NCBI RefSeq assembly: GCF_044324785.1
Contig: NZ_CP172127.1
Reading direction: 5' to 3' (one strand)
From: Escherichia coli
Lineage (GTDB): Bacteria > Pseudomonadota > Gammaproteobacteria > Enterobacterales > Enterobacteriaceae
Length of the DNA: 64,000 nt
Part shown: positions 3,461-51,637 of the stretch, piece after piece
Numbering within the stretch: position 1 is the stretch's first letter
Layout of the letters: each line of letters begins with the position of its first letter
Notes under the pieces: generated by a model
The model's input: only the letters and a program-made list of their open reading frames with translations
What the model was told of the DNA's origin: nothing
Database searches by the model: none
Translations under genes and position numbers: made by a program

Positions 3461-3478
3461 CCTTTTACAGGAGATAAT

Positions 3479-5178: not shown

Positions 5179-5185
5179 TCAATCA

Positions 5186-7681: not shown

Positions 7682-8499
<818 letters not shown>

Positions 8500-8745: not shown

Positions 8746-8765
8746 GGATTTGCCCCTATATTTCT
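8746..8765 (+). repeat. Solo IS2 terminal-repeat fragment
   Basis: TGGATTTGCCCCTATATTTC is identical to the first 20 nt of the IS2 end at 6350; the sequence diverges afterwards. Confidence 0.5.
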
Positions 8766-10038: not shown

Positions 10039-10424
10039 CTTTCTTTCCTCTGGCGACAATACACATACACAACATGATGATTGTTGAATGTATTTGTAAT
10101 TCTTATAACCGGCAATCAGTTTTGAAAAAATTAACACCGTATTTACATTTAATTTGAAGGAAATCACACATCTGAATTTTAATTACAGGCAGCTATCCGT
10201 GCTGCAGACCACCTTTATTTATATGACTGCGGATTAATGGCTAAAATATCCCAGCTATAATAGAAATATTGCACTATATCACACTCTCTTATTATTGTTA
10301 ATTTTGTTTCAATAATTCATGGTCTAATGATGAGTAAATTTTAAATGGATGGTGCTCTATGCATTCTGTTGCTATTCTTGGCTTGTTATATTTGTAAAAT
10401 CTTAAAAAGAGCAGGAGATCGATT

Positions 10425-11030: not shown

Positions 11031-11115
11031 CAACAGGAGCACGATTATCGCTATATTATCACGGCAATCTTTTCGGGCACTAACCGCAGACTGCGCGTTT
11101 CTCACTTTTCGGGGA

Positions 11116-14889: not shown

Positions 14890-15001
14890 CAATAACCGGG
14901 GCTAACGCAGTTAGCCCCACAGTAGCGGAAAACGTTGTTTACCTTCAGGGCTGGGCGATCTCCATGATCGCAAACGATGCTTAACCTGTTAAGGAGATTC
15001 C

Positions 15002-16552
15002 ATGAACAGCATAAAACTAGAATGGAAACGTGGTGACTGGGCGGCTTACTTTGGACTGATGACCAACAATCTGACTAACCTGCTGACAATGATGGGTCTG
15101 CTAATTTTTGTCGTCGGAATCCCTACTGAAATTGTCTATGGACGCATTGCGCCTGCCTTTGGTCTTGCAGTGCTGGCGGCCAGTGTCTGCTACTCCTGGT
15201 TTGGTCTACAGATGGTGAAGAAAACCGGTCGTAGCGATGTAACGGCGCTGCCGTCTGGACCGAGCGCACCCTCAATCTTTACCGTGACATTCCTGGTGCT
15301 GATGCCGGTTTATCAGCAAACCAAAGATGCCAACTTTGCTATTCAGATAGGATTGGTGTGGTGCTTTGTCGAAGCGTTGATCCTGGTCGGTGGCTCCTTC
15401 CTGGGTGAGACTATCCGCAAGATGATCCCGCGTACAGTGCTGCTTTCTTGTCTGTCCGGACTGGGGTTATTACTGCTGGCAATGAACCCGATGCTGCAAG
15501 CGTTCGAAGCGCCGACAGTTTCTTTCATCGTCCTGTTATTGATCTTCATTAACTGGTTCGGTAAGAAGCCGATTTTTCCCCATATTCCTACCGGTTTGCT
15601 GTTGCTGATTGCTGGTACGTCCCTAGCGTGGATATCCGGTTTACAAAGCCCGGAAGACATTAAAGCGTCGATGTCTTCCTTCGGCTTCAACCCGCCGGAA
15701 ATTCATGTAAGGAGCTTCCTGCAAGGTTTGCCGCACGCTCTGCCATATCTGGCTTCTGCAGTTCCTTTGGGCCTGGCTAACTACATTTTTGACCTCGAGA
15801 ACATTGAAAGTGCGCACGCGGCTGGTGATGAATACAACACCCGTAAGGTCATGATGGCGAACGGCTTTGCCTCCATGCTCGGTTGCATGCTGGGTAATCC
15901 GTTCCCGGTAACCGTATATGTTGGGCATGCAGGCTGGAAAGCTATGGGCGCTAGTATCTGCTATACCCTCGCATCAGGCATCACTATGTTTCTGGTGCCA
16001 TTGTTTGGGTTGGGCGCGTTTATGCTCGCCATTATTCCCATGACTGCTATAGTGCCAATTCTGGTTTTTATCGGTGTGGTAACCGCCAATCAGGTGGTGC
16101 GAGAAACTCCTAAAGTCGAGGTTCCCGTCATTTTCATCTGTCTGTTCCCATGGGTCGCCAACTGGGCATTGACCATCGTTAACAGCGTGATGGGCGCAGC
16201 CGGAACATCCGCTGAGAAACTTGGTAGCGACCTGTTGCACAGCAAAGGCGTCTATTACGATGGACTGATGCATCTGGGAAGCGGTGCACCGCTGGCCAGC
16301 ATGCTGTGGGGATGCATTGCTATCTTTGCCATTATGAATAAGCCGCTGCGCGGGGCGATAGCTGCATCCTTTGGAGCACTGTTATCGCTGTTTGGCGTGA
16401 TTCACTCCCCAGCGGTTGGCTTTGCGGAAGGCAGCTCGATTGTGTTTGTTGTGGCCTACCTGATGATGCTTGCTATGTTTGCCCTCAAGCATGTTATTGA
16501 TAGCCGTGAAACAGTGGCTGCGTCTGAGCAGGAAGAGACTAAAACGACCTGA
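15002..16552 (+). CDS. Polytopic membrane transporter (putative nucleobase/ureide-type permease), not part of the K-12 yah cluster
   Basis: 516 aa, at least 10 hydrophobic segments; RBS AAGGAGA before the ATG; family unresolved without a search. Confidence 0.65.
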   Translation: MNSIKLEWKRGDWAAYFGLMTNNLTNLLTMMGLLIFVVGIPTEIVYGRIAPAFGLAVLAASVCYSWFGLQMVKKTGRSDVTALPSGPSAPSIFTVTFLVLMPVYQQTKDANFAIQIGLVWCFVEALILVGGSFLGETIRKMIPRTVLLSCLSGLGLLLLAMNPMLQAFEAPTVSFIVLLLIFINWFGKKPIFPHIPTGLLLLIAGTSLAWISGLQSPEDIKASMSSFGFNPPEIHVRSFLQGLPHALPYLASAVPLGLANYIFDLENIESAHAAGDEYNTRKVMMANGFASMLGCMLGNPFPVTVYVGHAGWKAMGASICYTLASGITMFLVPLFGLGAFMLAIIPMTAIVPILVFIGVVTANQVVRETPKVEVPVIFICLFPWVANWALTIVNSVMGAAGTSAEKLGSDLLHSKGVYYDGLMHLGSGAPLASMLWGCIAIFAIMNKPLRGAIAASFGALLSLFGVIHSPAVGFAEGSSIVFVVAYLMMLAMFALKHVIDSRETVAASEQEETKTT

Positions 16553-16578
16553 ATAGCCTGCAAACGGAAGATAATTCT

Positions 16579-17541
16579 ATGAAAGAACTTGTGGTCGTTG
16601 CCATTGGTGGCAACAGCATTATCAAAGATAACGCCAGCCAGTCGATTGAGCATCAGGCGGAGGCGGTGAAGGCCGTCGCCGATACGGTTCTGGAAATGCT
16701 GGCTTCCGATTACGACATTGTGCTGACCCACGGCAACGGGCCGCAGGTCGGTCTGGATTTACGCCGCGCGGAGATAGCCCACGAGCGCGAAGGGCTACCC
16801 TTAACGCCGCTGGCGAACTGTGTGGCGGATACGCAAGGCGGCATTGGCTATCTGATCCAGCAGGCGCTGAACAACCGGCTGGCGCCTCTCGGCGAGAAAA
16901 AAGCCGTCACCGTGGTGACTCAGGTGGAAGTGGATAAAAACGATCCGGGGTTTGTCCATCCCACCAAGCCCATCGGTGCATTCTTTAGTGAAAACCAGCG
17001 TGATGAACTACAAAAGGCAAACCCTGACTGGCGTTTTGTTGAAGATGCCGGACGGGGCTATCGCCGCGTGGTCGCCTCGCCGGAACCGAAACGTATTGTC
17101 GAAGCACCTGCCATTAAGACTCTGATCCAGCAAGGCTTTGTGGTGATTGGCGCGGGCGGCGGTGGCATTCCGGTGGTGCGTACTGACGCAGGGGATTACC
17201 AAAGCGTGGACGCGGTTATCGACAAAGATCTCTCTAGCGCGCTACTGGCTCGCGAAATTCACGCCGACATTCTGGTGATCACCACCGGCGTGGAAAAAGT
17301 GAGTATTCATTTTGGGAAACCCAACCAGCATGCACTGGATACAGTGGATGTCCTAACGATGGCCCGTTACATGCAGGAGGGTCACTTCCCGCCTGGGAGT
17401 ATGTTACCGAAGATTCTTGCCAGTCTGGAGTTCCTGGAACGTGGAGGTAAAAGAGTGATTATCACCACGCCTGAATGCCTGTCCGCGGCACTGCGTGGCG
17501 AAACAGGCACCCATATTATCCACTCCCAAGAGGAGACGTAA
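16579..17541 (+). CDS. Carbamate kinase-like protein (YahI/ArcC-like)
   Basis: MKELVVVAIGGNSI...VLTHGNGPQVG matches the carbamate kinase / amino-acid kinase family. Confidence 0.8.
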   Translation: MKELVVVAIGGNSIIKDNASQSIEHQAEAVKAVADTVLEMLASDYDIVLTHGNGPQVGLDLRRAEIAHEREGLPLTPLANCVADTQGGIGYLIQQALNNRLAPLGEKKAVTVVTQVEVDKNDPGFVHPTKPIGAFFSENQRDELQKANPDWRFVEDAGRGYRRVVASPEPKRIVEAPAIKTLIQQGFVVIGAGGGGIPVVRTDAGDYQSVDAVIDKDLSSALLAREIHADILVITTGVEKVSIHFGKPNQHALDTVDVLTMARYMQEGHFPPGSMLPKILASLEFLERGGKRVIITTPECLSAALRGETGTHIIHSQEET

Positions 17542-18639
17542 ATTAAGGAAAGCGACCGCCGCCGTGAATTTTTAATGTTCATTGCAGATTATCGTGGGCT
17601 GGAAATGATAACGGTTGGGGAGTTATTGTTTAGTTGCTAAAACAGAACGATAACCAACCCCAACCGTTCTCAATTTCGAATACTATCTTTTCCATTTATC
17701 TCTGGATAGGCTTTGACGTCGTCCCTACTGAGTAAAATCCCCCTCATCATCCACCTAAAACCGATTGAAAACGGTCATTACTCTTGTGGCAAACAGGCTA
17801 AAGCCGTTCACGATGCTTCACTTCGCACCTTATCGTAATGAACAATACTGGTATTTCCAGTTCAGTTACGCCTACCCGTCTACCGCATTCTTTGCCCTAA
17901 CTGCGGCATAGTTCGGGATTATATCAGCTGGCTAAAGCCTTATGCTCATCAGACCACATGACTCATTGAGCATGTTGAGGCGTTACTCAAAATCTTGCCG
18001 ATTAAACATATTTCGTAATTTCTTACCCTGCACTAACATATCATCAATACTATCGACAAACGTCAGTTGCAAATAGAGGTCACAGGGTCTGATTGATGTA
18101 CTGTCAAGGCCGGGTCATGAAAGAGTTTGCCCTGTTCAAAGCTCATCGTTACGCACCGTCGTAGCCGATGCGGATACTCATCAATCCTCTGGATAGGTGA
18201 GGTGCGTAGTAGAGAAGCTCGGTCGTTTTTCGTTAATCTGAATCAGTACTGTCAACATATTCAAGTCGTTAATATGGATATGAATACCTCCTTTGACCTA
18301 GAGGTACAGATGCACTACCCCCCAAGCTGTCAACGACGGATGAAAAGTGGCTCTTCCGCAACCTGGATGGAGATTTTCATGCCAGTGGACTCATGACCCT
18401 CTGCCTGAGTAGTTCAAATCCGGCTCGACCATACATCTGGCCTTTCAGCATTTTTAGCCAATTTACATGACTTTCGACCACCCCCCATTATTCCAGCGAC
18501 TGCTGATTGCCTCACATATAGCCGCAGCATCAGCTACCATCCTTGCAGCCACGCGCCGAAGTTACCACTTTCTCGTTGCTCTTTTAACCACTCCCTCCAT
18601 GGGTCCAGAAGTCCTCGCTCTGGAGGCCGGGTTGACATT

Positions 18640-19539
18640 TCAGGGAATGTTCCTGAACACACCCAGAGACTGACTGTCACACGTGATAAGCCTGTAATAC
18701 GGGATAAGCCTGTAATACGGGATAAGCCTGTAATACGGGATATTTCCCCTGAACCCACATCCCTTGTTATGTAGTGCCATAACCTCTGTCCAACGCTGAT
18801 GCCGTTTTTGGCGGGTTTGCTGTTTAAGGCGTTCCGGACGACGGAGCGATGCTACAGGCACAGACAGTACTGGCTTAGGTGATTTCTTTGGTGACAACCC
18901 ACTGGCAACAAGACGTATCAGAGGCATCTGTCTGTACATCATTCGTTCAGGCGCATCGCCAATATTTTTTAGCAGGTGCCATCGATCAGCTATCTGTCTG
19001 GCCTGAGGTGCACCTTCACGTGCTGCTGTCGCATAGACTCCGCCACGGTCACGTGAGACAACCTGTATTTCCGGATATTTTCTGAACCAGGTCGCCAGCG
19101 TACTCTGATCGCAACCGGGAAGCAGGACGAGGGGACGGTGAGTATCAAGATTGACAATTAACGTGCCGTAATGGTGGCCCCGATGCCACGCCCACTCATC
19201 AATACCGACATGAGGCGCGCCCGACTGTTTCGTCTCCGGGGTATTAATAACCCTGCGAAGAAGAGTATCAGCACTGCAACGGAGCCCCACTGCCGTTGCT
19301 GCCTGTTTCCCGGCCTCACCTCCGGCTATTAATCCCAGTTGATGTTGTAAATTTTGTAACACCTGTGAAGAATGCTGGGAGTGAACCGGCGAAGGGGGCA
19401 AGCGACCCGGCAAAAATTTTACGTGAACAAGCCGGGTTACGGCAGTACCAGTGGCGGACGGAAAATACAAGCCATAGCGTCTGCCCTGAGCAGGGTAGAT
19501 GCTGTATCCGGCGCCGACGATAACTATGAACAGAGTCAC
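18640..19539 (-). pseudogene. ISL3-family transposase fragment, 5'-truncated at the IS1 insertion, with repeat-containing C-terminus
   Basis: ...HVGIDEWAWHRGHHYGTLIVNLDTHRPLVLLPGCDQSTLATWFRKYPEIQVVSRDRGGVYATAAREGAPQARQIADRWHLLKNIGDA resembles the ISL3 transposase core; the N-terminal part is missing. Confidence 0.55.
18685..18738 (+). repeat. 18-bp perfect tandem repeat x3 (GATAAGCCTGTAATACGG)
   Basis: Three identical 18-bp units, read in the minus-strand ORF as (IPYYRL)x3. Confidence 0.9.
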
Positions 19540-19716
19540 TACGCTTAAAGCATTCAGGACTTGTGCTGTTTTGCGTTTTCCGTGGAGATGGAGGGTTATA
19601 CCGTCAGAGCTAATAATTTGTCGACTGCATCTCCATCCGCAAGGTAACTGTAGAAGTGTCTGGTGATGCTGCCAACTTACTGATTTAGTGTATGATGGTG
19701 TTTTTGAGGTGCTCCA

Positions 19717-19992
19717 GTGGCTTCTGTTTCTATCAGCTGTCCCTCCTGTTCAGCTACTGACGGGGTGGTGCGTAACGGCAAAAGCACCGCCGGACATCAG
19801 CGCTATCTCTGCTCTCACTGCCGTAAAACATGGCAACTGCAGTTCACTTACACCGCTTCTCAACCCGGTACGCACCAGAAAATCATTGATATGGCCATGA
19901 ATGGCGTTGGATGCCGGGCAACTGCCCGCATTATGGGCGTTGGCCTCAACACGATTTTACGTCACTTAAAAAACTCAGGCCGCAGTCGGTAA
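19717..19992 (+). CDS. insA: IS1 InsA
   Basis: [43 protein letters not shown]... matches IS1 InsA. Confidence 0.9.
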
Positions 19993-20414
19993 CCTCGCGC
20001 ATACAGCCGGGCAGTGACGTCATCGTCTGCGCGGAAATGGACGAACAGTGGGGCTATGTCGGGGCTAAATCGCGCCAGCGCTGGCTGTTTTACGCGTATG
20101 ACAGTCTCCGGAAGACGGTTGTTGCGCACGTATTCGGTGAACGCACTATGGCGACGCTGGGGCGTCTTATGAGCCTGCTGTCACCCTTTGACGTGGTGAT
20201 ATGGATGACGGATGGCTGGCCGCTGTATGAATCCCGCCTGAAGGGAAAGCTGCACGTAATCAGCAAGCGATATACGCAGCGAATTGAGCGGCATAACCTG
20301 AATCTGAGGCAGCACCTGGCACGGCTGGGACGGAAGTCGCTGTCGTTTTCAAAATCGGTGGAGCTGCATGACAAAGTCATCAGGCATTATCTGAACATAA
20401 AACACTATCAATAA
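19911..20414 (+). CDS. insB: IS1 InsB frame (expressed as InsAB' by -1 frameshifting)
   Basis: ORF carrying the IS1 InsB sequence ...[47 protein letters not shown]...; coordinates are the open frame, not a defined start. Confidence 0.8.
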
Positions 20415-20429
20415 GTTGGAGTCATTACC

Positions 20430-20578
20430 GTGTTCCCGACAGACGACTCGGTGAAAAAAGTGGTGTGGCTGGCAATCCAGTCTGCGTCCCAGAAATGGAC
20501 GATGCCGTTGAAGGACTGGCGAATGGCAATGAGCCGCTTTATTATCGAGTTCGGTGACCGCCTGGACGGTCACTTCTG
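20430..20578 (+). pseudogene. C-terminal fragment of an IS256/Mutator-family transposase, cut at the IS1 boundary
   Basis: VFPTDDSVKKVVWLAIQSASQKWTMPLKDWRMAMSRFIIEFGDRLDGHF followed by a stop; resembles IS256-family transposase C-termini as recalled; begins right at the IS1 end. Confidence 0.5.
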
Positions 20579-20848
20579 AGAAAAGGCATTTACACAGAAT
20601 CCTAAACAGGCTCATTCAGACAGCTTTTTATTTCACTATGGCTATCCCAGAACAATCAGTACAAATAATAAAAGACATATCACAGCAACACTCCACACTG
20701 ACAGCGCAAAAATAAATGCCGCCTTTGTTATCTTCATATACAAGCAACCTGTCCTGATAATCACCAGCTCATGTTTTATTCTTAACCATTCGTCACAAAT
20801 ACAACAAAAAATAACAGCAGCAGCACCGATATCACAATATAAGATACA

Positions 20849-21304
20849 TTATTCAACACCTGAATCCCCCGCCGCTTCTCTCCCCTTTATAAAACGCCCC
20901 TTCCGGAATCCAGACCGCTGCAGTGCACGACGAAGATGACCGTATACCGTCTTGTCATTCTGCCCCGTCTCTTCTGTAATCTCCGCAATACTTAAACCTC
21001 TGTAATACCGGTTCAGTAACGCTCTGCGCTCTTCCAGCGTCAACACACCTCCGGCCGCTCTCAGATTCAGCATCGACTTATTCAGAATACAGCAGGCCTC
21101 TCCGGTAAAAAGAATACGAACAATATCTGTATACTCATCATCACAGAATACAAAATAATATCTGAATGACCTGCCTGACTGCACCCTTCTTCTGTCTGAT
21201 ATGGCATCTTCTATATATCTGATTCGACTGCTTACGGTTCCAAATACCTCTCGCAGGGCTTTTTCAAAATAAATATCTCTCGTCGCCAGGATTATATCCA
21301 GCAT
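20849..21304 (-). CDS. Putative HTH transcriptional regulator (LuxR/sigma-70 region-4-like C-terminus)
   Basis: C-terminal LTLEERRALLNRYYRGLSIAEITEETGQNDKTVYGHLRRALQR resembles a GerE/region-4 HTH; lies immediately upstream of the adhesin gene on the same strand. Confidence 0.5.
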   Translation of the reverse strand: MLDIILATRDIYFEKALREVFGTVSSRIRYIEDAISDRRRVQSGRSFRYYFVFCDDEYTDIVRILFTGEACCILNKSMLNLRAAGGVLTLEERRALLNRYYRGLSIAEITEETGQNDKTVYGHLRRALQRSGFRKGRFIKGREAAGDSGVE

Positions 21305-21365
21305 CTCTGTACCTCATTATATCCCGGGGGACTCCCCCCGGGACAGATATCTAAATCCTGACCTG

Positions 21366-22631
21366 TCAGAACTCAAAATTCACACCAGCATTCCACGATG
21401 CGGATGACCCACCTGCAGCAACTGCAACTTTTCCTGCCACATTCTCTGTGAAACGGTAGCCCACGCCCACCGCAATGGCCTGCTCATCACGGTAACCACC
21501 AACGGCTGCTGTCGCGTTAAATTTTCCAACACTGTATGGCTGGAAAAGACCGGCCAGTGCCGCGCTCTGGGCTGCACTCTCCCTTAACTCCTTCCGGTTC
21601 TCTTTAATCTGCTCCTGCATATTATTCATTCTCTCTGTCGCCATCTTCTGCCAGGCTTCCGTCAAATCCAGACGATGACTGTTATTCCTTATCGCTGCTG
21701 TATTTGAGGCTATTGCTGCATCCGTCTGCGCCCTGTTCTTCACAAGCACATCGCTGAGATGTTCTGCCTGGCTTTTCGCTTCTTTACGGGCATCCCGTAC
21801 ACTTTTATCTGTATAAGCCCGGGAAACCTGAACTGTTTCATCCGCTTTTTCTTTTATTTCATCCTGAAGAGCAAGAGAAGATGCATCCGTATACGCCACC
21901 GCTGCCGATGTGCCTGCAATAATATCCCTGCTGAGTTCATCACGTACTGCTGTAACCTGACTGTCAGTATGAGCACGGGCATCTCTGTATACACCGCCTA
22001 TCTCACCGCGCAGGGCATCCCCCGACACCCGTACAGCATCTGCAATGGCGTTGTCCATCTGTCCTTTTGTGGCCGCATCACTATCCTTAACACCATCTGA
22101 AACATTTATAATCCGGCGGGTTTCCGGTGCTCCTTTGACACTCTCTCCATATCCCTCAGGCCCGGCACCAACAGATACCACGTTATTTTCTCCCGACACC
22201 TGTGAGCCATGGCCCAGAGCTACAGAACTGGTAGAATCCTGCACAGATGAAAACGCACCAATTGCCGAGCTCTGACGAGAAGAAATAAGTGACGCTTCTT
22301 TTCCTGCAACAGTCCCCCATTCAGAGTCAGCAATAAGTGCATCATGCCCCAGACTCACACTTCCCGGAGAGTTCACAACACCAGAATTATTCCCCAAAAG
22401 CACAGTCCTGTTTGAGTCTAATAAAAAAGAATCATCACCAATCAACCATACATTTCTTACTTTATCAATCGAACGGCCAGCTACTGATTCTCCAACAAGA
22501 AAGCTATTATCTTCGCCAGGTTCAATCGGTCCGATTAAAATATCCTGAGCCTGAGCCTGAGCCGAGAGCAGCAGGGCCACACTCACTGCCAGCGCGCTTT
22601 TCTTTAAAAAAGCATCACGTCTTTTAAGCAT
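21366..22631 (-). CDS. Trimeric autotransporter adhesin (YadA-like C-terminal anchor; Eib/Saa-like)
   Basis: Signal peptide [28 protein letters not shown]; repetitive head, long coiled-coil stalk; C-terminal anchor ...[35 protein letters not shown]; RBS AGGAGA before the ATG at 22631. Confidence 0.7.
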
Positions 22632-23118
22632 TCTGTTATTCTCCTGTATTATTACTTCACCAGCCAGAACGGTAGTGCGGAGCAAAAATACAGTGATAAG
22701 AATCCTCTTTTATTAATTTAATAATGCCAGGAATATTATTGTGTATAATATGCGCCCTCAATTTAAGCAGCAGAAAAGCAATGACGAGAAAATCATTAAA
22801 ATACATAAAGATAAAACATCATAACTATAATTATAATAAGCGCGCTTATTTTAGCATCTGAACATTTAAAGTACTGCTATCACAAAACAATAAAAATCCT
22901 GGGTAATATCTCTGATGATTGAATGAGAAATTCACGATGTCTGGTGAGAATTCTGTTCAAAACGAGGAATGCAGACATACATGTGGCAGGCATGGACTTC
23001 CACCGATTTAACTTTTTTCCTTCCTTGTATTTACACATCACACATTTTGCGCTACAAAAATTTCACGTGGCACGCACCACGTGATCCGTAGAAAAGCCTC
23101 TTGTTACGAATTTCGTAA

Positions 23119-23150
23119 ACCGCACGTCTGTCTGGTCGTGCGGATTTTTT
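23119..23150 (+). terminator. Orphan intrinsic-terminator-like hairpin with U-tract
   Basis: CCGCACG-tctgtctggt-CGTGCGG followed by ATTTTTTAT; no + strand CDS upstream. Confidence 0.4.
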
Positions 23151-23343
23151 ATCCGTCAACTTCACATGAAACCGCCAGATCACTGTTTCCGGATTCAGAC
23201 ATCAGGCATATTATCATCCACAATGTCGTGAACAAGATCACACTTTTGCAATTCCTTTATTGATCGAAAGCAGTTAATCACGGAAATTAATTACCGGAGT
23301 GAAAGCATTACTGCATCGTAAATATCTACCATTTTTGACTACA

Positions 23344-23373
23344 CCCTCTGACAGAATTTTCAGAGGGTTTTTT
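23344..23373 (+). terminator. Orphan intrinsic-terminator-like hairpin with U-tract
   Basis: CCCTCTGA-cagaattt-TCAGAGGG followed by TTTTTTAT. Confidence 0.45.
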
Positions 23374-23827
23374 ATCAGTTTCACCATCCAACCCTGTACG
23401 CCAGAATGGTTTCACTGTCACTCAGTTCTGCTATTGCCTTTTTCATCTCCCTTTACCTTACGTTCTGCCAGAGTCTGAGCCATTTGAACAGGAGGTTATC
23501 ATTGATATCGTGTTCCCGGGCAATACGGGCAACAGAGGCTCCTGGTTGCAAAACCAGTTTAACCATTTGAAGTTTAACTCATTTGAAAATGATCTGCGGG
23601 GTTCTGCGGATAATGTTTTTGCTCCATAACAGGCGCCCACCAGTTTGAAAAGGTGGGCACCTACGTTACCAATACTGGCTTAATGGATACATACGGCGGT
23701 CGGTTCTTACGGTAAAACGACACAACCAAACGCTTCTTATCCTGCAATGAACTGCTTTATTACCGAGTTTAGTGACCGCACAGACACTCACTTTTAAGAA
23801 AAACAGAATGGTAAACAAACTCCATGA

Positions 23828-24007
23828 ATTACAATAGCTCTCTGGCTGCCGCCACAATAGCTTGCGCGGTTAACCCGTACTCTCTCTGTAAAAAGTCCTG
23901 AGTTTCAACCTGGCCATACCGCTCTTTAACCCCCACCCGACGCATGGGCACAGGACAAGTTTCTACAAGCACTTCAGCAACTGCTGAACCTAATCCATTA
24001 TGAATAC
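23828..24007 (-). pseudogene. 3' remnant of a transketolase C-terminal-subunit gene, truncated by the IS1-like element
   Basis: Minus-strand translation ...IHNGLGSAVAEVLVETCPVPMRRVGVKERYGQVETQDFLQREYGLTAQAIVAAARELL* resembles transketolase C-terminal domains; the upstream coding sequence is replaced by the IS1-like element at 24008. Confidence 0.5.
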
Positions 24008-35039: not shown

Positions 35040-35261
35040 ATGAAAATCATCACCCGTGGTGAAGCCATGCGTATTCACCAACAGCATCCTGCATCCCGTC
35101 TTTTTCCGTTCTGTACCGGCAAATACCGCTGGCACGGTGGCACTGAAGCGTATACCGGTCGTGAAGTGCAGGATATTCCCGGTGTGCTGGCCGTGTTTGC
35201 AGAACGCCGTAAGGACAGTTTTGGTCCGTATGTCCGGCTGATGAGCGTCACCCTGAACTGA
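35040..35261 (+). CDS. DUF987-family small protein (YeeT/YkfH/YpjJ-like)
   Basis: 73 aa; conserved slot between the radC-like gene and the TA pair. Confidence 0.6.
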   Translation: MKIITRGEAMRIHQQHPASRLFPFCTGKYRWHGGTEAYTGREVQDIPGVLAVFAERRKDSFGPYVRLMSVTLN

Positions 35262-35275
35262 GTCAGGGCATTCTG

Positions 35276-35920
35276 ATGAGCAGAATTATCACCATCACAG
35301 TGTATACGCTGGATGAACTTTCCTGCCCGGCACGGGAAAAAGCCCGCGACGGGTACCGTCAGCATCATGCTGACAGCAGCTGGTATGAAAACGTGTATGA
35401 GGACTTCAGGGCGGTCTGTGACATTGTCGGGATTGCCCTCCGCCAGCGAGTTATCCGGCTCAGCAGCGGCAGGTTTATGGAAGAGCCGTGCATCTGGTTC
35501 AGCGGCTTCAGCAGCCAGGGGGACGGAGCCTGTTTTGACGGGCGCTGGCACTGGCAGCCGGCAACAGCCAGGAAAATCCGGGAATATGCCCCGCAGGACC
35601 GTGAGCTTCATCGTATCGCGGATGCCCTGCAGGCGGTGCAGAAGCGTAACTTCCGGCAGCTTCAGGCTGAAATCCGCCACCGGGGACGCTACTGCCATCC
35701 GTACAGCATGGATATCACCGTCACCCGGGACAGTCCGACTGGTCAGGCTATGACAGCCGATGCGGAAGCCGCTGTCAGCGAAGCCCTGCGCGACCTGGCC
35801 TTCTGGCTGTACCGTCAACTGGAAAACGAGTACGACCAGATGACCTCAGACGCCGCTGTGGATGAGGCCATTCTCATCAATGCATACATCTTCACCGAAA
35901 CCGGTCAGCGCACCGGCTGA
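35276..35920 (+). CDS. Hypothetical protein (214 aa) in the variable slot between the DUF987 gene and cbeA
   Basis: ORF with consistent coding composition; no motif recognised; the overlapping antisense ORF 35075..35818 is rejected. Confidence 0.5.
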   Translation: MSRIITITVYTLDELSCPAREKARDGYRQHHADSSWYENVYEDFRAVCDIVGIALRQRVIRLSSGRFMEEPCIWFSGFSSQGDGACFDGRWHWQPATARKIREYAPQDRELHRIADALQAVQKRNFRQLQAEIRHRGRYCHPYSMDITVTRDSPTGQAMTADAEAAVSEALRDLAFWLYRQLENEYDQMTSDAAVDEAILINAYIFTETGQRTG

Positions 35921-35969: not shown

Positions 35970-36338
35970 GTGTCAGACACACTCTCCGGGATAACTCATC
36001 CCGACGACAATCACGACCGCCCCTGGTGGGGGCTTCCCTGCACAGTGAGGCCCTGTTTTGGCGCCCGTCTGGTGCAGGAGGGTAACCGGTTGCATTACCT
36101 TGCCGACCGCGCCGGCATCAGAGGCCGGTTCAGCGATGCGGATGCATACCATCTGGACCAGGCCTTTCCGCTGCTGATGAAACAACTGGAACTCATGCTC
36201 ACCAGCGGTGAACTGAATCCCCGCCATCAGCATACCGTCACGCTGTATGCAAAAGGGCTGACCTGCGAAGCCGACACCCTCGGCAGTTGTGGTTACGTTT
36301 ATCTGGCTGTTTATCCGACGCCCGAAACGAAAAAGTAA
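35970..36338 (+). CDS. cbeA: CbeA/YeeU/YfjZ-family type IV antitoxin
   Basis: MSDTLSGITHPDDNHDRPWWGLPCTVRPCFGARLVQEGNRLHYLADRAGIRGRF...YVYLAVYPTPE matches the family. Confidence 0.8.
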   Translation: MSDTLSGITHPDDNHDRPWWGLPCTVRPCFGARLVQEGNRLHYLADRAGIRGRFSDADAYHLDQAFPLLMKQLELMLTSGELNPRHQHTVTLYAKGLTCEADTLGSCGYVYLAVYPTPETKK

Positions 36339-36428
36339 ACCACCGGAATAACCTTCTGCTCCGGCCAGGTGTTTTCACCACGCCACTCTCCCCATAATTT
36401 AATCTCTCATATCAGGAAAATCTTCAGT

Positions 36429-36839
36429 ATGAAATTATTACCCGACACACATGTACGGGAGGCATCGTGCTGCCCGTCTCCCGTCACCATCTGGCAGACA
36501 CTGCTCATCCGTCTGCTGGACCAGCACTATGGCCTCACACTGAATGACACACCGTTCGCTGATGAACGTGTGATTGAGCAGCATATTGAGGCCGGCATTT
36601 CACTGTGCGATGCGGTGAACTTTCTCGTTGAAAAATACGCACTGGTACGTACCGACCAGCCGGGATTCAGCGCAGGAGCCCCGTCGCAGTTAATCAACAG
36701 CATCGATATTCTCCGGGCCCGCCGGGCAACAGGCCTGATGACACGTAATAACTACAGAATGGTAAATAACATTACCCTGGGTAGCATCCGGGGGCGAAAC
36801 GATGAAACTTTCCCTGACGCTGGAAGCCGACAGCGTTAA
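36429..36839 (+). CDS. cbtA: CbtA/YeeV/YpjF-family toxin (cytoskeleton-binding toxin)
   Basis: ...[67 protein letters not shown]...[16 protein letters not shown] matches the CbtA family; start set at MKLLPDTH. Confidence 0.75.
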
Positions 36840-37227
36840 CGTACAGGCGCTGAACATGGGGCGAATTGTCGTTGACATTGATGGTGTTGAGCTCACTGAA
36901 CTGATTAACAAGGTCGCTGAAAACGGTTATTCACTCCGCGTGGTGGATGAACGTGACGCTACCGAAACACCGGCGACTTCTGCCAGCTCTCATCAGTTGC
37001 CGGAAGACAATACAGTGATACAGAGCGTGATGCCATTAACCACTGAAACAGCGCTGGATATCCTCATTGCGTGGCTGCAGGACAATATCGACTGCGGGTC
37101 CGGAATTATTTTCGACAACGATGAGGATAAAACGGATTCGGCAGCACTGCTGCCCTGTATCGAACAGGCCAGAGCAGATATCCGCACCCTGCGCCAGCTG
37201 CAGCAGCTTCTGCAACAGAACCGGTGA
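36802..37227 (+). CDS. YeeW-like hypothetical protein
   Basis: 141-aa ORF in the slot occupied by yeeW downstream of cbtA in CP4-44 (recalled); overlaps the cbtA 3' end. Confidence 0.45.
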
Positions 37228-38261: not shown

Positions 38262-38525
38262 ATGCCTACCAGTGTATCCCTCAGTCCTTACTTTGAAACG
38301 TTTATCCGCGAACAAATAGAAAGTGGTCGGTACAACAATACAAGTGAAGTCATTCGTGCCGGACTTCGTGCGCTGGAAGAACGGGAACAGCAGATAAAGC
38401 TTGAATCACTCCAGAGCGCCGTGACCGCAGGCATCAACAGCGGTGAAAGTAAAAGTGCTGAAGAGGTATTCGGGCGACTGACGCACAAATACAAAAAGAT
38501 GGCAGAAGGTGAACAGCCAATATGA
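38262..38525 (+). CDS. parD: ParD-family type II antitoxin (ribbon-helix-helix)
   Basis: 87 aa; ...SEVIRAGLRALEEREQQIKLESLQSAVTAGINSGES... typical of ParD; stop overlaps the toxin start (ATGA at 38522). Confidence 0.75.
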   Translation: MPTSVSLSPYFETFIREQIESGRYNNTSEVIRAGLRALEEREQQIKLESLQSAVTAGINSGESKSAEEVFGRLTHKYKKMAEGEQPI

Positions 38526-38848
38526 AACTGACTGTTTCACCATTAGCAGAACACGATCTTGAAGCTATAGGTGACTGGATCGCTCAGGATAATCCTGTCC
38601 GTGCAATCAGTTTTACCGAAGAGCTTTACCAACAATGTCTGTTGATAGCCGAATCGCCAGTACTCTACAGAGAAAGACCCGAGTTAGGGGCTGGGATCAG
38701 AGGTTGTTCGTATGGTCGTTACCTTCTGCTGTTCAGGGTACTGGATACTGAAGTTCGTATCGAACGTATCGTTCATGGTTCCCGGGATATCAACAGGGTA
38801 CTTGCAGAGCCAGACGACAAACCATCAGATCATTTCTGGCAGCCATAA
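38522..38848 (+). CDS. parE: ParE/RelE-family type II toxin
   Basis: 108 aa, ...LLLFRVLDTEVRIERIVHGSRD... ParE-like; translationally coupled to parD. Confidence 0.75.
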   Translation: MKLTVSPLAEHDLEAIGDWIAQDNPVRAISFTEELYQQCLLIAESPVLYRERPELGAGIRGCSYGRYLLLFRVLDTEVRIERIVHGSRDINRVLAEPDDKPSDHFWQP

Positions 38849-39095
38849 ACAAAATCTGTGCGTTAACGCTCCCTAACACAGGTAGCCAGGTATTTTATAA
38901 ATCTCTGTATTTTGTTGTCACTTCGATTCCGCGATTCAGCATATCGAACCAGATAAAATGATTACAACAAACCACAAGAAAGAGGGATTATAGCGTCAAA
39001 AGAATTCGAATTGCACATGGGGGCCTCATTGGTGGCCTCAAAAATAACAAACACAAAACAATCAATATAAAACAACTTGTTATACAACCAGTTTC

Positions 39096-39114
39096 ATTCC
39101 GAGTCCGGGCACCA
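39096..39114 (+). repeat. 19-nt direct repeat of the tRNA-Phe 3' end (attR-like island boundary)
   Basis: ATTCCGAGTCCGGGCACCA equals the 3' terminal 19 nt of E. coli tRNA-Phe (pheU/pheV) as recalled; upstream sequence does not fold as a tRNA; followed by the tRNA-type terminator. Confidence 0.7.
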
Positions 39115-46712: not shown

Positions 46713-46948
46713 CTGTCGTAAAAACAATTGGTTATGAATAAATTAACTTTCAGTTTATCACACTAGCAAATCGAGATTAATAAGTCATTTAAACCATTTT
46801 TATGGTTATTTATTAGTGATATCAACTTGAGGTAAGCGTTAGTTTCGATAAGATAAACTGAGTTATTAATAGTCGAGGCAGATAATACAGTGTACCGATC
46901 TGTCTCTTTATCTACGCTAAATTGAAAGCTGGATTTAGAGGAACCAAA

Positions 46949-48466
46949 ATGTCTGAACGAGAAACACGGGGAGCCAATGAGGCTATTGATTTTAACGATG
47001 AACTGAGAAATCGCCGCGAAAAACTGGCGGCACTACGTCAGCAAGGTGTGGCGTTTCCCAATGATTTTCGCCGCGACCATACCTCTGACAAGTTGCACGA
47101 AGAGTTTGATGCGAAGGATAACCAGGAACTGGAATCCTTAAACATTGAAGTCTCGGTTGCTGGCCGAATGATGACCCGTCGTATCATGGGGAAAGCCTCC
47201 TTTGTAACGTTGCAGGATGTCGGTGGCCGTATTCAACTGTACGTTGCAAGAGATAGCCTGCCAGAAGGTGTTTATAACGATCAGTTTAAAAAATGGGATC
47301 TGGGTGACATTATCGGTGCCCGCGGTACGCTGTTTAAGACGCAAACGGGTGAGCTTTCCATTCACTGTACTGAGCTGCGCCTGCTGACTAAAGCACTACG
47401 TCCTTTACCAGATAAATTCCATGGTCTGCAGGATCAGGAAGTCCGTTATCGTCAACGTTATCTGGACCTCATCGCTAACGATAAATCCCGTCAAACGTTT
47501 GTTGTCCGTTCAAAAATTCTGGCCGCTATCCGTCAGTTCATGGTCGCGCGCGGCTTTATGGAAGTAGAAACCCCGATGATGCAGGTAATTCCAGGTGGGG
47601 CATCTGCTCGCCCGTTTATTACCCATCATAACGCTCTGGATTTAGATATGTACCTGCGTATCGCGCCGGAGCTGTATCTGAAACGTCTGGTTGTAGGCGG
47701 TTTTGAACGGGTATTCGAAATCAACCGTAACTTCCGTAATGAAGGTATTTCTGTTCGCCATAATCCTGAGTTCACAATGATGGAACTCTACATGGCGTAT
47801 GCGGATTACCACGATTTGATTGAACTGACGGAGTCACTGTTCCGCACCCTGGCACAAGAGGTTCTGGGTACCACTAAAGTCACTTATGGCGAGCATGTGT
47901 TTGATTTCGGCAAACCGTTTGAAAAACTCACCATGCGCGAAGCAATCAAAAAATATCGTCCAGAAACCGATATGGCCGACCTGGATAATTTTGATGCTGC
48001 TAAAGCATTAGCTGAATCTATCGGAATTACGGTAGAGAAAAGCTGGGGTCTGGGACGTATTGTTACGGAGATCTTTGATGAAGTGGCAGAAGCACATCTG
48101 ATTCAGCCAACCTTTATTACGGAATATCCGGCAGAAGTGTCCCCGCTGGCGCGCCGTAATGATGTTAACCCGGAAATCACCGACCGTTTTGAATTCTTCA
48201 TCGGTGGTCGTGAAATCGGTAATGGTTTTAGCGAATTAAACGATGCAGAAGATCAGGCTGAACGTTTCCAGGAACAGGTTAACGCTAAAGCTGCAGGTGA
48301 CGACGAAGCCATGTTCTATGACGAAGATTACGTGACTGCGCTGGAATATGGTCTGCCGCCAACCGCTGGTCTGGGTATTGGTATCGACCGAATGATTATG
48401 CTGTTTACAAACAGTCATACTATTCGCGACGTTATTCTCTTCCCGGCGATGCGCCCACAGAAATAA
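46949..48466 (+). CDS. lysU: LysU lysine--tRNA ligase (heat-inducible)
   Basis: 505 aa from [40 protein letters not shown]...; class II aaRS motifs; the track ORF starts 27 nt upstream at an in-frame Met. Confidence 0.95.
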
Positions 48467-48479
48467 ATTTCACTTTAAT

Positions 48480-48509
48480 GAACGAAGCAGTCAGGCGACT
48501 GCTTCGTTC
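48480..48509. terminator. Hairpin between convergent lysU and ghoT (probable bidirectional terminator)
   Basis: GAACGAAGCAGTC-aggc-GACTGCTTCGTTC, a perfect 13-bp stem; A/T-rich flank on the ghoT side. Confidence 0.55.
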
Positions 48510-48584
48510 GTCGTTCCGCAAATCCAGTTTTGAGGAGAGACGCTTCGTTTCACGATAACCAGCGGGTCCACTCAACTACAGCTC

Positions 48585-48758
48585 CTAAAAGAGAGAAAAA
48601 AGTAATGCCACAGGCAGACTCATTGGCCAGGTTATTCCTACCAGGAATGCACTAAGTAAACGAATATGTGTTTTCTCATGTGAGATAAACCAGATAATGA
48701 CAAAGGATATGTTCACACCAATCACATAAAAAATTAATATTTTAGAGAATAGTGCCAT
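48585..48758 (-). CDS. ghoT: GhoT type V toxin (small membrane-lytic peptide), 57 aa, below the ORF-track size cut-off
   Basis: Minus-strand translation MALFSKILIFYVIGVNISFVIIWFISHEKTHIRLLSAFLVGITWPMSLPVALLFSLF*; two hydrophobic helices; immediately downstream of ghoS. Confidence 0.8.
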   Translation of the reverse strand: MALFSKILIFYVIGVNISFVIIWFISHEKTHIRLLSAFLVGITWPMSLPVALLFSLF

Positions 48759-48785
48759 TTTTTATGTTCTTCTTATCCTTCCTGG

Positions 48786-49082
48786 CTACTTGTAAAACTG
48801 ACGGAAATAGTCATCAACTGTCATAATGTTGAGGTCAAAGTCAATATCCGGTAAGTCTAAGCATTTAAGCCTGATTAAATCTTCGATTTCACTTGCGGCT
48901 AATGATGTCGTTATTGCGAAGGAATTTTCATTCAATTGTCGTGGTATCCCATATTCATCAGCCACGATAGAGGAGAAATTCATATCATGCATCAATGATC
49001 TTAACCTTAAGAACACTGAGGAATAAGATGATGGATAATCAAAAGAAACAACATAAGTATTGAACTTGTTTTTACCTTCCAT
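48786..49082 (-). CDS. ghoS: GhoS type V antitoxin (sequence-specific endoribonuclease; YjdK)
   Basis: 98 aa MEGKNKFNTYVVSFDYPSSYSSVFLRLRSLMHDMNFSSIVADEYGIPRQLNENSFAITTSL... matches GhoS as recalled. Confidence 0.85.
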   Translation of the reverse strand: MEGKNKFNTYVVSFDYPSSYSSVFLRLRSLMHDMNFSSIVADEYGIPRQLNENSFAITTSLAASEIEDLIRLKCLDLPDIDFDLNIMTVDDYFRQFYK

Positions 49083-49310
49083 AATATGACTCCTATCAAT
49101 TTTAAACGCTCTGGGGACGCAAAACTTATTAACCCCGAATGATGATTCTCATATAGGAGATATTCTTTTTTTTTTGCTCAGTAAAGGGGATGACTTGGGA
49201 CAAAAAAACGCTCTCTCTGACCATTCTTTGTGCATCCCCCTACCCTTCAGATGCTCACCTGCATCACACCGCGGAGAGCATGAAAAATATCGTGACTCTG
49301 TACTCTCCCA

Positions 49311-49583
49311 TCAACTGCGAATATCATCATACTCCCGTGTTTTATCAAATTCGTGTTTCGCAAATGGGCATAGTGGGATAATTTTTCGTTTTTCCCGACG
49401 CATTTTTTCCACGACTTTCGCAACCAGCTGTTTACCAATCCCCTGCCCTTTCAGGCTTTCATCGACATCGGTATGTTCGATAATCGCTAAATTCTCTCCG
49501 GTCGGCACAAAGACAATTTCAGCGATTTGCTTGCCCTGTTCGTCATTAATGTAAAATTTATTGTGGCCTTCGCGTATTTCCAT
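49311..49583 (-). CDS. yjdJ: YjdJ GNAT-family N-acetyltransferase
   Basis: 90 aa with acetyl-CoA binding motif [14 protein letters not shown]. Confidence 0.8.
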
Positions 49584-49594: not shown

Positions 49595-49825
49595 TTATTT
49601 ATGACGGTATTTCAGCGCGCCGCTCGGGCACGTATCAATCACTTTAACCACAGTGGCAACGTCGACTTCATCCGGCATGATCCACGGCTTTCGTTTGAGA
49701 TTAAATAACTTGCCGTTGCCACGTACGCAATTGCCAGAATGCTGACATATCGCAGTATTGAAATAGACATCGATCTTTTCGCCGGTATAACAGCGATAAC
49801 CCCCGTCCAGTAGCGCCCGATCCAT
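49595..49825 (-). CDS. yjdI: YjdI small cysteine-containing protein
   Basis: 76 aa with CxxxxCxxxC...C spacing ([12 protein letters not shown]...CPSGAL). Confidence 0.75.
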
Positions 49826-50005: not shown

Positions 50006-51637
50006 ATGAGACATTCATTGCCCTACCGCATGTTACGCAAACGTCCGATGAAATTGAGTACCACAGTGATCTTAATGGTCAGCGCGGTACTGTTCTCGGT
50101 GCTATTGGTGGTGCATCTGATTTACTTCTCGCAAATCAGTGATATGACGCGAGACGGGCTAGCCAACAAGGCACTGGCAGTAGCGCGTACCCTCGCCGAC
50201 TCGCCGGAAATCCGTCAGGGCTTGCAGAAAAAACCGCAGGAGAGTGGAATCCAGGCCATCGCGGAAGCCGTGCGCAAACGCAACGATCTGCTATTTATTG
50301 TCGTTACCGATATGCAAAGTCTTCGCTACTCGCATCCTGAAGCCCAGCGTATTGGTCAGCCATTTAAAGGTGATGACATCCTTAAAGCGCTGAATGGCGA
50401 AGAAAATGTCGCTATCAATCGCGGTTTTCTGGCGCAGGCTTTACGCGTATTTACCCCCATCTACGATGAAAATCATAAACAAATTGGCGTGGTGGCGATC
50501 GGCCTTGAGTTAAGTCGCGTGACCCAACAGATCAATGACAGTCGCTGGAGCATTATCTGGTCGGTACTATTTGGCATGCTGGTCGGACTGATTGGCACTT
50601 GCATTCTGGTTAAGGTACTGAAAAAAATCCTTTTCGGCCTGGAACCCTACGAAATCTCCACGCTGTTTGAGCAACGCCAGGCCATGTTGCAGTCTATCAA
50701 AGAAGGCGTCGTTGCCGTGGACGATCGCGGCGAGGTCACGCTAATCAACGATGCCGCACAAGAATTGCTGAATTACCGTAAGTCGCAGGACGATGAGAAA
50801 CTGTCGACGCTAAGCCACTCGTGGTCACAGGTGGTAGATGTCTCGGAAGTGTTACGCGACGGTACCCCGCGCCGCGACGAAGAGATTACGATTAAAGATC
50901 GGCTATTACTGATCAACACCGTTCCGGTGCGCAGTAATGGCGTTATCATCGGTGCCATTTCAACCTTCAGGGACAAAACTGAAGTACGTAAACTGATGCA
51001 GCGACTCGACGGTCTGGTCAACTATGCTGACGCACTTCGTGAACGATCCCACGAATTTATGAATAAATTGCATGTGATTCTCGGATTATTGCATCTGAAG
51101 AGTTATAAGCAGTTGGAAGATTACATTCTCAAAACAGCCAATAACTATCAGGAAGAGATTGGCTCTCTGCTGGGTAAGATCAAATCTCCGGTTATCGCTG
51201 GTTTTTTAATCAGCAAGATTAACCGCGCGACCGATTTAGGCCATACGCTGATTTTAAACAGTGAAAGCCAGCTGCCAGACAGCGGCAGTGAGGACCAGGT
51301 CGCGACGCTGATTACCACATTGGGAAATCTGATAGAAAACGCGCTGGAAGCATTAGGGCCGGAACCCGGTGGCGAAATTAGCGTAACATTGCACTACCGT
51401 CACGGCTGGCTGCACTGTGAAGTTAACGATGATGGACCGGGGATCGCACCCGATAAAATCGATCACATTTTTGACAAAGGTGTCTCGACAAAAGGAAGCG
51501 AGCGAGGCGTCGGTTTAGCACTTGTCAAACAACAGGTAGAAAATCTCGGCGGCAGCATCGCCGTGGAATCGGAACCCGGGATTTTCACACAATTTTTTGT
51601 CCAGATACCCTGGGACGGGGAGAGGTCGAACAGATGA
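50006..51637 (+). CDS. dcuS: DcuS C4-dicarboxylate sensor histidine kinase
   Basis: 543 aa; two TM segments flanking a periplasmic domain, PAS, HisKA/HATPase (GVGLALVKQQVENLGGSIAV). Confidence 0.95.
   Translation: MRHSLPYRMLRKRPMKLSTTVILMVSAVLFSVLLVVHLIYFSQISDMTRDGLANKALAVARTLADSPEIRQGLQKKPQESGIQAIAEAVRKRNDLLFIVVTDMQSLRYSHPEAQRIGQPFKGDDILKALNGEENVAINRGFLAQALRVFTPIYDENHKQIGVVAIGLELSRVTQQINDSRWSIIWSVLFGMLVGLIGTCILVKVLKKILFGLEPYEISTLFEQRQAMLQSIKEGVVAVDDRGEVTLINDAAQELLNYRKSQDDEKLSTLSHSWSQVVDVSEVLRDGTPRRDEEITIKDRLLLINTVPVRSNGVIIGAISTFRDKTEVRKLMQRLDGLVNYADALRERSHEFMNKLHVILGLLHLKSYKQLEDYILKTANNYQEEIGSLLGKIKSPVIAGFLISKINRATDLGHTLILNSESQLPDSGSEDQVATLITTLGNLIENALEALGPEPGGEISVTLHYRHGWLHCEVNDDGPGIAPDKIDHIFDKGVSTKGSERGVGLALVKQQVENLGGSIAVESEPGIFTQFFVQIPWDGERSNR

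What the first reader, a model, noticed from the sequence alone, without database searches (positions are those of the whole stretch)
48585..48758. ghoT toxin gene (57 aa) missed by the ORF track; complete GhoT/GhoS type V system next to lysU
Translating the minus strand downstream of ghoS gives a 57-aa two-helix hydrophobic peptide matching GhoT; it falls below the 60-aa ORF cut-off. Together with ghoS (48786..49082) this is an intact type V toxin-antitoxin locus. The only ORF listed across ghoS on the + strand is an antisense artefact.
Basis: partly seen in the sequence, partly recalled or inferred. Interest (0 to 1): 0.4.

Follow-up and report, generated by a model that had tools for sequence, protein, structure and literature searches.

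The report
Known E. coli ghoST toxin-antitoxin locus
This is the ordinary, intact copy of the well-known E. coli GhoT/GhoS toxin-antitoxin gene pair, which an ORF list missed only because the toxin gene (57 codons) is shorter than the 60-codon cut-off.

Summary
Window 48585..48758 (- strand) is an uninterrupted ATG-to-stop ORF of 57 codons. Its product is identical, 57 of 57 residues, to the annotated GhoT of a K-12 derivative, and it matches Pfam Toxin_GhoT_OrtT at 90 bits. Twenty-seven bases upstream on the same strand lies ghoS (48786..49082). GhoS matches Pfam GhoS at 137 bits and is 97/98 identical to the solved structure 2LLZ. The gene order dtpC-lysU-ghoT-ghoS-yjdJ-yjdI-dcuS is the same as in K-12. 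The locus is present in 5342 of 5426 complete E. coli genomes and is annotated there as a type V toxin-antitoxin system.

Features tied to the published mechanism are all kept:
- two hydrophobic segments and F38 in GhoT;
- R28 in GhoS;
- three GCU sites in ghoS and none in ghoT.

The only protein difference from K-12 is GhoS Y32H. This allele is rare (37 of 5426 genomes) and sits at a position that also varies (Y/H/C) in other GhoS homologues, so it is probably neutral.

Verdict: real, intact, already known and of low interest. The locus lies in the conserved chromosome about 9.5 kb outside a tRNA-Phe-associated island, which carries two further toxin-antitoxin pairs (CbtA/CbeA and ParDE).

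The parts
48585..48758 (-). ghoT coding sequence (57 codons plus stop): small two-segment hydrophobic membrane toxin
   Evidence: ORF listed. Pfam PF10753 Toxin_GhoT_OrtT at 90.4 bits, E 8.9e-26. 57/57 aa identical to WP_001173343.1 of J53 and strain 1190, with 1 synonymous nt difference from J53. Hydropathy: segments 4-26 and 34-57 have mean Kyte-Doolittle values of about 2.0 and 1.9, and the loop 27-33 has -2.1. No GCT triplet.
48759..48785 (-). 27-nt ghoS-ghoT spacer, with a purine-rich stretch (48769..48783) that probably serves as the ghoT ribosome-binding region
   Evidence: The sequence CCAGGAAGGATAAGAAGAACATAAAAA is identical to K-12 J53. There is no room for a terminator, which fits a bicistronic transcript. 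The ribosome-binding role is inferred, not tested.
48786..49082 (-). ghoS coding sequence (98 codons plus stop): endoribonuclease antitoxin, Y32H allele
   Evidence: Pfam PF11080 GhoS at 136.7 bits. 97/98 identical to PDB 2LLZ chain A (YjdK). Identical to WP_001560287.1 of strain 1190. Three GCT triplets, at nt 121, 213 and 221. R28 present.
49090..49094 (-). Shine-Dalgarno AGGAG, 7 nt upstream of the ghoS ATG
   Evidence: Read directly from the sequence: AAATTGATAGGAGTCATATT then ATG.
49083..49310 (-). yjdJ-ghoS intergenic region, presumed to hold the ghoST promoter; contains an A10 tract at 49166..49175 (A8 in K-12)
   Evidence: Alignment with J53 and strain 1190. The consensus scan found no strong sigma-70 match inside this region; the one minus-strand match, 49348..49320, lies in the 3' end of yjdJ. 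The promoter is therefore not located.
48480..48509 (.). 13-bp perfect hairpin between the convergent ghoT and lysU genes, a likely shared transcript-end structure
   Evidence: RNA fold of 48467..48584 (-): minimum free energy -39.5 kcal/mol, z = -3.1, with stem GAACGAAGCAGUC/GACUGCUUCGUUC. There is no T-run on either strand, so the terminator scan did not call it. The function is inferred.
46949..48466 (+). lysU (neighbour, not part of the system): lysine-tRNA ligase, 505 aa
   Evidence: Pfam tRNA-synt_2 at 324 bits plus the anticodon-binding OB fold. 2 aa differences from the J53 protein at the syntenic position between dtpC and ghoT. PGAP labels the gene lysS. The name lysU follows from its K-12 map position, which I recall from memory.

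Best explanation
The region is the chromosomal ghoST operon of Escherichia coli, the founding type V toxin-antitoxin system, intact and in its usual place.

Shown here:
- ghoS (antitoxin, 98 aa) and ghoT (toxin, 57 aa) lie head to tail on the minus strand, 27 nt apart.
- They sit between yjdJ and the convergent lysU.
- GhoT is identical to the K-12 protein, and GhoS differs from it by one residue (Y32H).

Inferred from the published K-12 work (Wang et al. 2012, 2013; Cheng et al. 2014; as summarised in PMC4010927, PMC4344625, PMC4905990 and PMC3905216):
- Both genes are transcribed together.
- GhoS, a Cas2-like endoribonuclease with R28 as its key residue, cleaves the ghoT part of the mRNA, so little toxin is made.
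- Under stress, the MqsR toxin, which cuts at GCU, destroys the ghoS part (three GCU sites) but spares ghoT (none). GhoT is then translated.
- GhoT inserts into the inner membrane through its two hydrophobic helices, dissipates membrane integrity and ATP, and slows growth or produces ghost cells.
For: ORF and coordinates. Family matches far above the cut-offs, PF10753 at 90.4 bits and PF11080 at 136.7 bits. GhoS is 97/98 identical to the solved structure 2LLZ. GhoT is 57/57 identical to K-12-lineage GhoT, the ghoS-ghoT spacer is identical, and ghoT differs by one synonymous nt, so any K-12 cleavage sites in the ghoT mRNA are essentially unchanged. Gene order is the same as in J53 (a K-12 derivative) and strain 1190, both annotated as type V TA. 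The locus is in 5342 of 5426 complete E. coli genomes, with a median of one copy. GCU asymmetry (ghoS 3, ghoT 0): matching PMC4344625 and PMC4905990. Two hydrophobic segments, and F38 and I21 present: and the sequence; PMC4344625 reports that F38R abolishes GhoT toxicity. R28 is conserved in all near-full-length homologues aligned.
Against: Nothing in the sequence argues against it. Four caveats remain. No expression or activity was measured here. The promoter was not located. mqsRA lies outside the window, so whether the regulatory cascade exists in this strain is unknown. GhoS carries Y32H next to M31, and PMC4010927 reports that M31L alone makes GhoS growth-inhibitory, so an altered activity cannot be formally excluded. 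The physiological role of chromosomal TA systems is itself debated in the literature (PMC5996881, PMC7438911).
Confidence: 0.96

Rival explanations
1. The 57-aa ORF is the orphan paralogue OrtT (YdcX) or another member of the GhoT/OrtT family, not GhoT itself, and so is not controlled by an antitoxin.
For: The Pfam model PF10753 covers both GhoT and OrtT. OrtT is also 57 aa with two predicted transmembrane segments (PMC4344625).
Against: The peptide is 100% identical to annotated GhoT, whereas OrtT is only 63% identical to GhoT (PMC4344625). It sits 27 nt downstream of ghoS at the K-12 ghoT position. It also lacks GCU sites, as ghoT does, whereas ortT has two (PMC4344625).
Confidence: 0.01
2. 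The locus is intact in sequence but functionally altered in this lineage. The rare GhoS Y32H substitution, the A10 (not A8) tract upstream of ghoS, or both, change antitoxin activity, specificity or expression.
For: The H32 allele is found in only 37 of 5426 complete genomes, against 5192 with the K-12 base. Residue 32 adjoins M31 and is four residues from the catalytic R28. M31L and L25I each make GhoS growth-inhibitory (PMC4010927). The A-tract length differs from K-12.
Against: Position 32 is Y, H or C among natural GhoS homologues, including a 78%-identical one that has H, while R28, M31 and L25 are nearly invariant. The allele persists in 37 genomes from diverse hosts and is annotated there as ghoS, and in the window and strain 1190 it sits beside an intact ghoT. 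That would be unlikely if the antitoxin had been lost or had become toxic. Strain 1190 has the same A10 tract.
Confidence: 0.05
3. The ORF is a chance open frame in AT-rich intergenic DNA, and the real gene is on the other strand.
For: The ORF is short (57 aa) and AT-rich (34% GC). A + strand ORF of 41 aa (48530..48655) overlaps its 3' end.
Against: It has a strong family match, it is identical at protein level in the two other genomes compared (J53 and strain 1190) and it is an extreme hydrophobicity outlier among ORFs of similar size. Published work shows that mutating the start codon of the close paralogue ortT restores growth, which proves that OrtT acts as a protein (PMC4344625); the same paper reports that F38R abolishes GhoT toxicity.
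Confidence: 0.005

Closest known systems
GhoT/GhoS (YjdO/YjdK) type V toxin-antitoxin system of E. coli K-12
   Same: Same genes, same order, same chromosomal neighbours (dtpC, lysU, yjdJ, yjdI, dcuS). GhoT is 57/57 identical, GhoS is 97/98 identical, the 27-nt spacer is identical, and the GCU distribution is the same.
   Different: GhoS has Y32H, a rare allele found in 37 of 5426 genomes. There are five synonymous differences in ghoS and one in ghoT, and an A10 tract instead of A8 upstream of ghoS.
OrtT (YdcX), orphan GhoT-like toxin of E. coli
   Same: Same Pfam family PF10753, same length (57 aa), two predicted transmembrane segments and a conserved F38 (PMC4344625).
   Different: OrtT is 63% identical to GhoT, has no adjacent antitoxin and carries two GCU sites (PMC4344625). 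The ORF here is identical to GhoT, follows ghoS and has no GCU.
Cas2 (CRISPR-associated endoribonuclease), structural homologue of GhoS
   Same: The literature reports a shared fold and five conserved catalytic residues, with R28 the most important in GhoS (PMC4010927). R28 is present here.
   Different: No CRISPR context. No sequence-level family match to Cas2 was seen, only PF11080. The fold comparison was not repeated here.

Membership tests
GhoT/OrtT toxin family (Pfam PF10753) | Sequence match to the family model above its curated cut-off | tested here: met
   90.4 bits against a cut-off of 22.1; residues 4-57 cover model positions 1-55 of 55.
GhoT/OrtT toxin family (Pfam PF10753) | A peptide of about 57 aa with two hydrophobic transmembrane segments joined by a short polar loop | tested here: met
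   57 aa. Segments 4-26 and 34-57 have mean Kyte-Doolittle values of 2.0 and 1.9, and the loop HEKTHIR has -2.1. This agrees with the segments 6-26 and 34-54 quoted in PMC4344625. A dedicated transmembrane predictor was not available.
GhoT/OrtT toxin family (Pfam PF10753) | F38, the residue whose F38R substitution abolishes toxicity | tested here: met
   F38 (and I21) are present in the translated ORF. Their functional importance is taken from PMC4344625.
GhoT/OrtT toxin family (Pfam PF10753) | Membrane damage, ATP depletion and growth arrest on expression | not testable with these tools
   This needs an expression experiment. It is inferred from the 100% identity with the K-12 protein that was tested.
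GhoS antitoxin family (Pfam PF11080) | Sequence match to the family model and to the solved GhoS structure | tested here: met
   136.7 bits against a cut-off of 21. 97/98 identical to 2LLZ_A.
GhoS antitoxin family (Pfam PF11080) | Catalytic R28 retained | tested here: met
   R28 is present, and it is nearly invariant in the alignment of 14 homologues. Its role is taken from PMC4010927.
GhoS antitoxin family (Pfam PF11080) | Endoribonuclease activity specific for ghoT mRNA | not testable with these tools
   This needs an in vitro cleavage assay. The substrate (ghoT mRNA) differs from K-12 by one synonymous base, nt 120.
Type V toxin-antitoxin system (GhoTS) | Antitoxin gene first and toxin gene second, on one strand, close enough to be one transcript | tested here: met
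   ghoS 48786..49082 and ghoT 48585..48758 are both on the - strand with a 27-nt spacer and no hairpin between them. Co-transcription itself was not measured.
Type V toxin-antitoxin system (GhoTS) | Differential MqsR sensitivity: GCU sites in ghoS, none in ghoT | tested here: met
   ghoS has GCT at nt 121, 213 and 221. ghoT has none. This is the same as in K-12 J53.
Type V toxin-antitoxin system (GhoTS) | The upstream regulator MqsR/MqsA is present in the same genome | not testable with these tools
   mqsRA lies far from this locus in K-12 (from memory) and is outside the 64-kb window.

The most novel reading that the evidence does not exclude
The rare natural GhoS H32 allele (0.7% of complete E. 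coli genomes) sits beside M31 and near the catalytic R28. In the laboratory, single substitutions in this patch of the protein turn the antitoxin into a growth inhibitor with broader RNA targets. The H32 allele might therefore shift the substrate range or activity of GhoS in this lineage. That would make it a natural example of the antitoxin-to-toxin plasticity shown experimentally.
Probability: 0.05. Interest if true: 0.3.

Novelty: already known. Interest (0 to 1): 0.05.

Why it matters
It matters mainly as a quality check. Small toxin genes below an ORF-length cut-off are routinely missed, and this one is real, so the scan's ORF track should be read with that blind spot in mind. Biologically, the locus is the textbook type V toxin-antitoxin pair. 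It is present in about 98% of complete E. coli genomes, and its presence here adds no new knowledge. The only strain-specific point is a rare GhoS Y32H allele, which is probably neutral.

Tried and rejected
1. NCBIfam scan of GhoT and GhoS gave no family. This is a gap in that library, not evidence against the identification; Pfam and RefSeq product names cover both proteins.

2. The consensus promoter and terminator scan of 48350..49400 found no convincing ghoST promoter and no canonical terminator. The hairpin between ghoT and lysU was found only by folding.

3. I tried to use the synonymous/non-synonymous pattern to show that the + strand ORF 48826..49026 is non-coding. The test is uninformative because that frame shares its third codon positions with ghoS: five of the six differences fall on position 3 in both frames.

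4. I tried to read the primary papers, Wang et al. 2012 and 2013 (PMC3514572, PMC3620836 and by DOI). They are not held. The exact GhoS cleavage sites in ghoT mRNA therefore could not be mapped onto the window. The mechanism is cited from later open-access papers of the same group and from reviews.

5. Rfam and tRNA scans of the whole window found nothing.

6. OrtT identity was considered and rejected (see rival explanations).

Full report
**Observation**

The minus strand of window 48585..48758 holds an uninterrupted ORF of 57 codons that starts with ATG at 48758. Its product is MALFSKILIFYVIGVNISFVIIWFISHEKTHIRLLSAFLVGITWPMSLPVALLFSLF. Twenty-seven bases upstream on the same strand is a 98-codon ORF, 48786..49082.

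**Is it more than chance?**

Yes, on three counts.
- Of the 80 ATG-ORFs of 50-70 aa in the window, this is the most hydrophobic by a wide margin (GRAVY 1.50, next best 0.80).
- It matches Pfam PF10753 (Toxin_GhoT_OrtT) over the full model at 90.4 bits, against a cut-off of 22.1.
- The upstream ORF matches PF11080 (GhoS) at 136.7 bits and is 97/98 identical to the solved structure 2LLZ, deposited as YjdK, the old name of GhoS.

**Comparison with annotated genomes**

A 921-bp query across the locus hits 5342 of 5426 complete E. coli genomes, with a median of one copy per genome, almost always chromosomal. In all 24 listed records that hold the full query, the features under the match are annotated as ghoS, ghoT, a lysine-tRNA ligase and yjdJ.

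In the K-12 derivative J53 and in the best-matching strain 1190, the gene order is dcuR-dcuS / yjdI-yjdJ-ghoS-ghoT / lysine-tRNA ligase-dtpC. The window has the same order: dcuS at 50006..51637, yjdI and yjdJ at 49595..49825 and 49311..49583, and the ligase at 46949..48466.

Base-by-base comparison gives the following.
- ghoT differs from J53 by one synonymous base, so the protein is 57/57 identical (WP_001173343.1).
- ghoS differs by six bases, five of them synonymous and one giving Y32H. It is identical in DNA and protein to strain 1190 (WP_001560287.1).
- The ghoS-ghoT spacer is identical.
- There is no frameshift or premature stop.

The ligase differs from the J53 protein by two residues. 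It occupies the K-12 lysU position. PGAP uses the generic label lysS, and the name lysU follows from map position, which I recall from memory.

**Anatomy relevant to mechanism**

- GhoT has two hydrophobic segments, residues 4-26 and 34-57, with mean Kyte-Doolittle values of about 2.0 and 1.9. They are joined by the polar loop HEKTHIR. This agrees with the two transmembrane segments quoted for the family (PMC4344625).
- F38 is present. Its F38R substitution abolishes toxicity (PMC4344625).
- GhoS keeps R28, reported as the most important catalytic residue (PMC4010927).
- ghoS has a good Shine-Dalgarno sequence, AGGAG, 7 nt before the ATG. The spacer before ghoT is purine-rich.
- ghoS contains three GCU triplets and ghoT none, exactly as in K-12. 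This asymmetry is the published basis for activation by the GCU-specific RNase MqsR (PMC4344625, PMC4905990, PMC3905216).
- Downstream of ghoT, between it and the convergent lysU, is a perfect 13-bp hairpin at 48480..48509 (fold z = -3.1). It has no T-run, so the consensus terminator scan did not call it.
- No convincing sigma-70 consensus was found in the 228-bp yjdJ-ghoS intergenic region, so the promoter remains unlocated.

**Mechanism**

The sequence directly shows an intact antitoxin-first bicistronic arrangement that encodes proteins identical or nearly identical to the characterised ones.

The rest is inferred from the K-12 literature. GhoS cleaves ghoT mRNA and so prevents toxin synthesis. 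MqsR removes the ghoS part of the transcript under stress and spares ghoT. GhoT then damages the inner membrane, lowers ATP and slows growth. None of this was, or could be, measured here.

I could not read the two primary papers, so the exact GhoS cleavage sites could not be placed on the sequence. Because ghoT differs from K-12 by one synonymous base, they are essentially unchanged.

**The single protein difference**

A 55-nt probe was designed so that every 28-mer seed spans the variant base.
- The H32 allele is found in 37 of 5426 complete genomes.
- The K-12 allele is found in 5192.

The allele adjoins M31, where M31L alone makes GhoS growth-inhibitory (PMC4010927). However, a search of 5.8 billion proteins found GhoS homologues named, where a name is given, almost only from Escherichia and Shigella. 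In an alignment of 14 of them, position 32 is Y, H or C, with H also in a 78%-identical homologue. R28, M31 and L25 are nearly invariant. I therefore regard Y32H as a probably neutral lineage marker and give an altered function about 5%.

**The antisense ORF**

The + strand ORF 48826..49026 (66 aa) has no Pfam match and is not annotated in the records examined. It overlaps a gene whose product has a solved structure. The substitution pattern cannot add to this, because the frame shares its third codon positions with ghoS. Calling it an artefact is reasonable but rests on these indirect grounds.

**Context**

The locus is in conserved core chromosome. Upstream of cadC, a 23-nt remnant of the 3' end of tRNA-Phe at 39092..39114 matches 21 of 23 bases, with none expected by chance (the tRNA sequence was recalled from memory). 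There is no intact tRNA in the window. Everything to the left of the remnant is therefore likely to be a tRNA-Phe-associated island, and large parts of it are found whole in only 20 to 145 complete genomes. That island carries a type IV CbtA/CbeA pair and a type II ParDE pair. These are unrelated to ghoST.

**Verdict**

The locus is the already known ghoST system, intact and ordinary. Interest is low: 0.05.

Noticed in passing
window 39092..39114 (+), and 1..~39114: A 23-nt remnant of the tRNA-Phe 3' end (TTTCATTCCGAGTCCGGGCACCA, 21/23 bases, 0 expected by chance) lies about 600 bp upstream of cadC, and no intact tRNA is in the window. This marks the right edge of a large genomic island that fills the left 39 kb of the window. 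Parts of the island are found whole in only 20 to 145 of 5426 complete E. coli genomes.
   Followed up: partly
window 35970..36338 (+) and 36369..36839 (+): A type IV toxin-antitoxin pair inside the island: CbeA/YeeU antitoxin (PF06154, 184 bits), then CbtA toxin (PF06755, 199 bits; the true start is probably the internal ATG about 20 codons into the listed ORF). It is followed by a DUF5983 gene at 36802..37227.
   Followed up: partly
window 38262..38525 (+) and 38522..38848 (+): A type II ParD/ParE toxin-antitoxin pair with a 4-nt overlap, at the very edge of the island (PF03693 at 63 bits, PF05016 at 65 bits). Toxin-antitoxin systems of three types (II, IV and V) therefore lie within about 13 kb.
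   Followed up: partly
window 35276..35920 (+): A 214-aa ORF between the DUF987 gene and cbeA has no Pfam or NCBIfam match. It has no counterpart at that position in the otherwise similar island of strain B1, locus L003. A long antisense ORF (35075..35818, -) overlaps it, so whether it codes for a protein is unsettled.
   Followed up: partly
window 49166..49175 (- strand): The A-tract in the yjdJ-ghoS intergenic region is A10 here and in strain 1190, but A8 in the K-12 derivative J53. It is a length polymorphism in the presumed ghoST promoter region, and its effect is unknown.
   Followed up: no
window 48989 (ghoS nt 94, codon 32): The GhoS Y32H allele is rare, 37 of 5426 complete E. coli genomes against 5192 with the K-12 base. 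The genomes that carry it come from dogs, humans, chicken, mink and lake water. It may serve as a lineage marker for the source strain.
   Followed up: yes
window 46922..48466 (+): The mechanical ORF for lysU starts at TTG 46922 (514 aa). The start that matches the RefSeq gene length is ATG 46949 (505 aa).
   Followed up: yes
window 1..24000: The left part of the island matches, at 99.4-99.8% identity, regions of a few genomes annotated with an S6-family peptidase, a YadA-like protein, fdrA/YlbE/DUF1116 genes, a xanthine permease and ISL3 and IS21 transposases. This content was not examined further.
   Followed up: no
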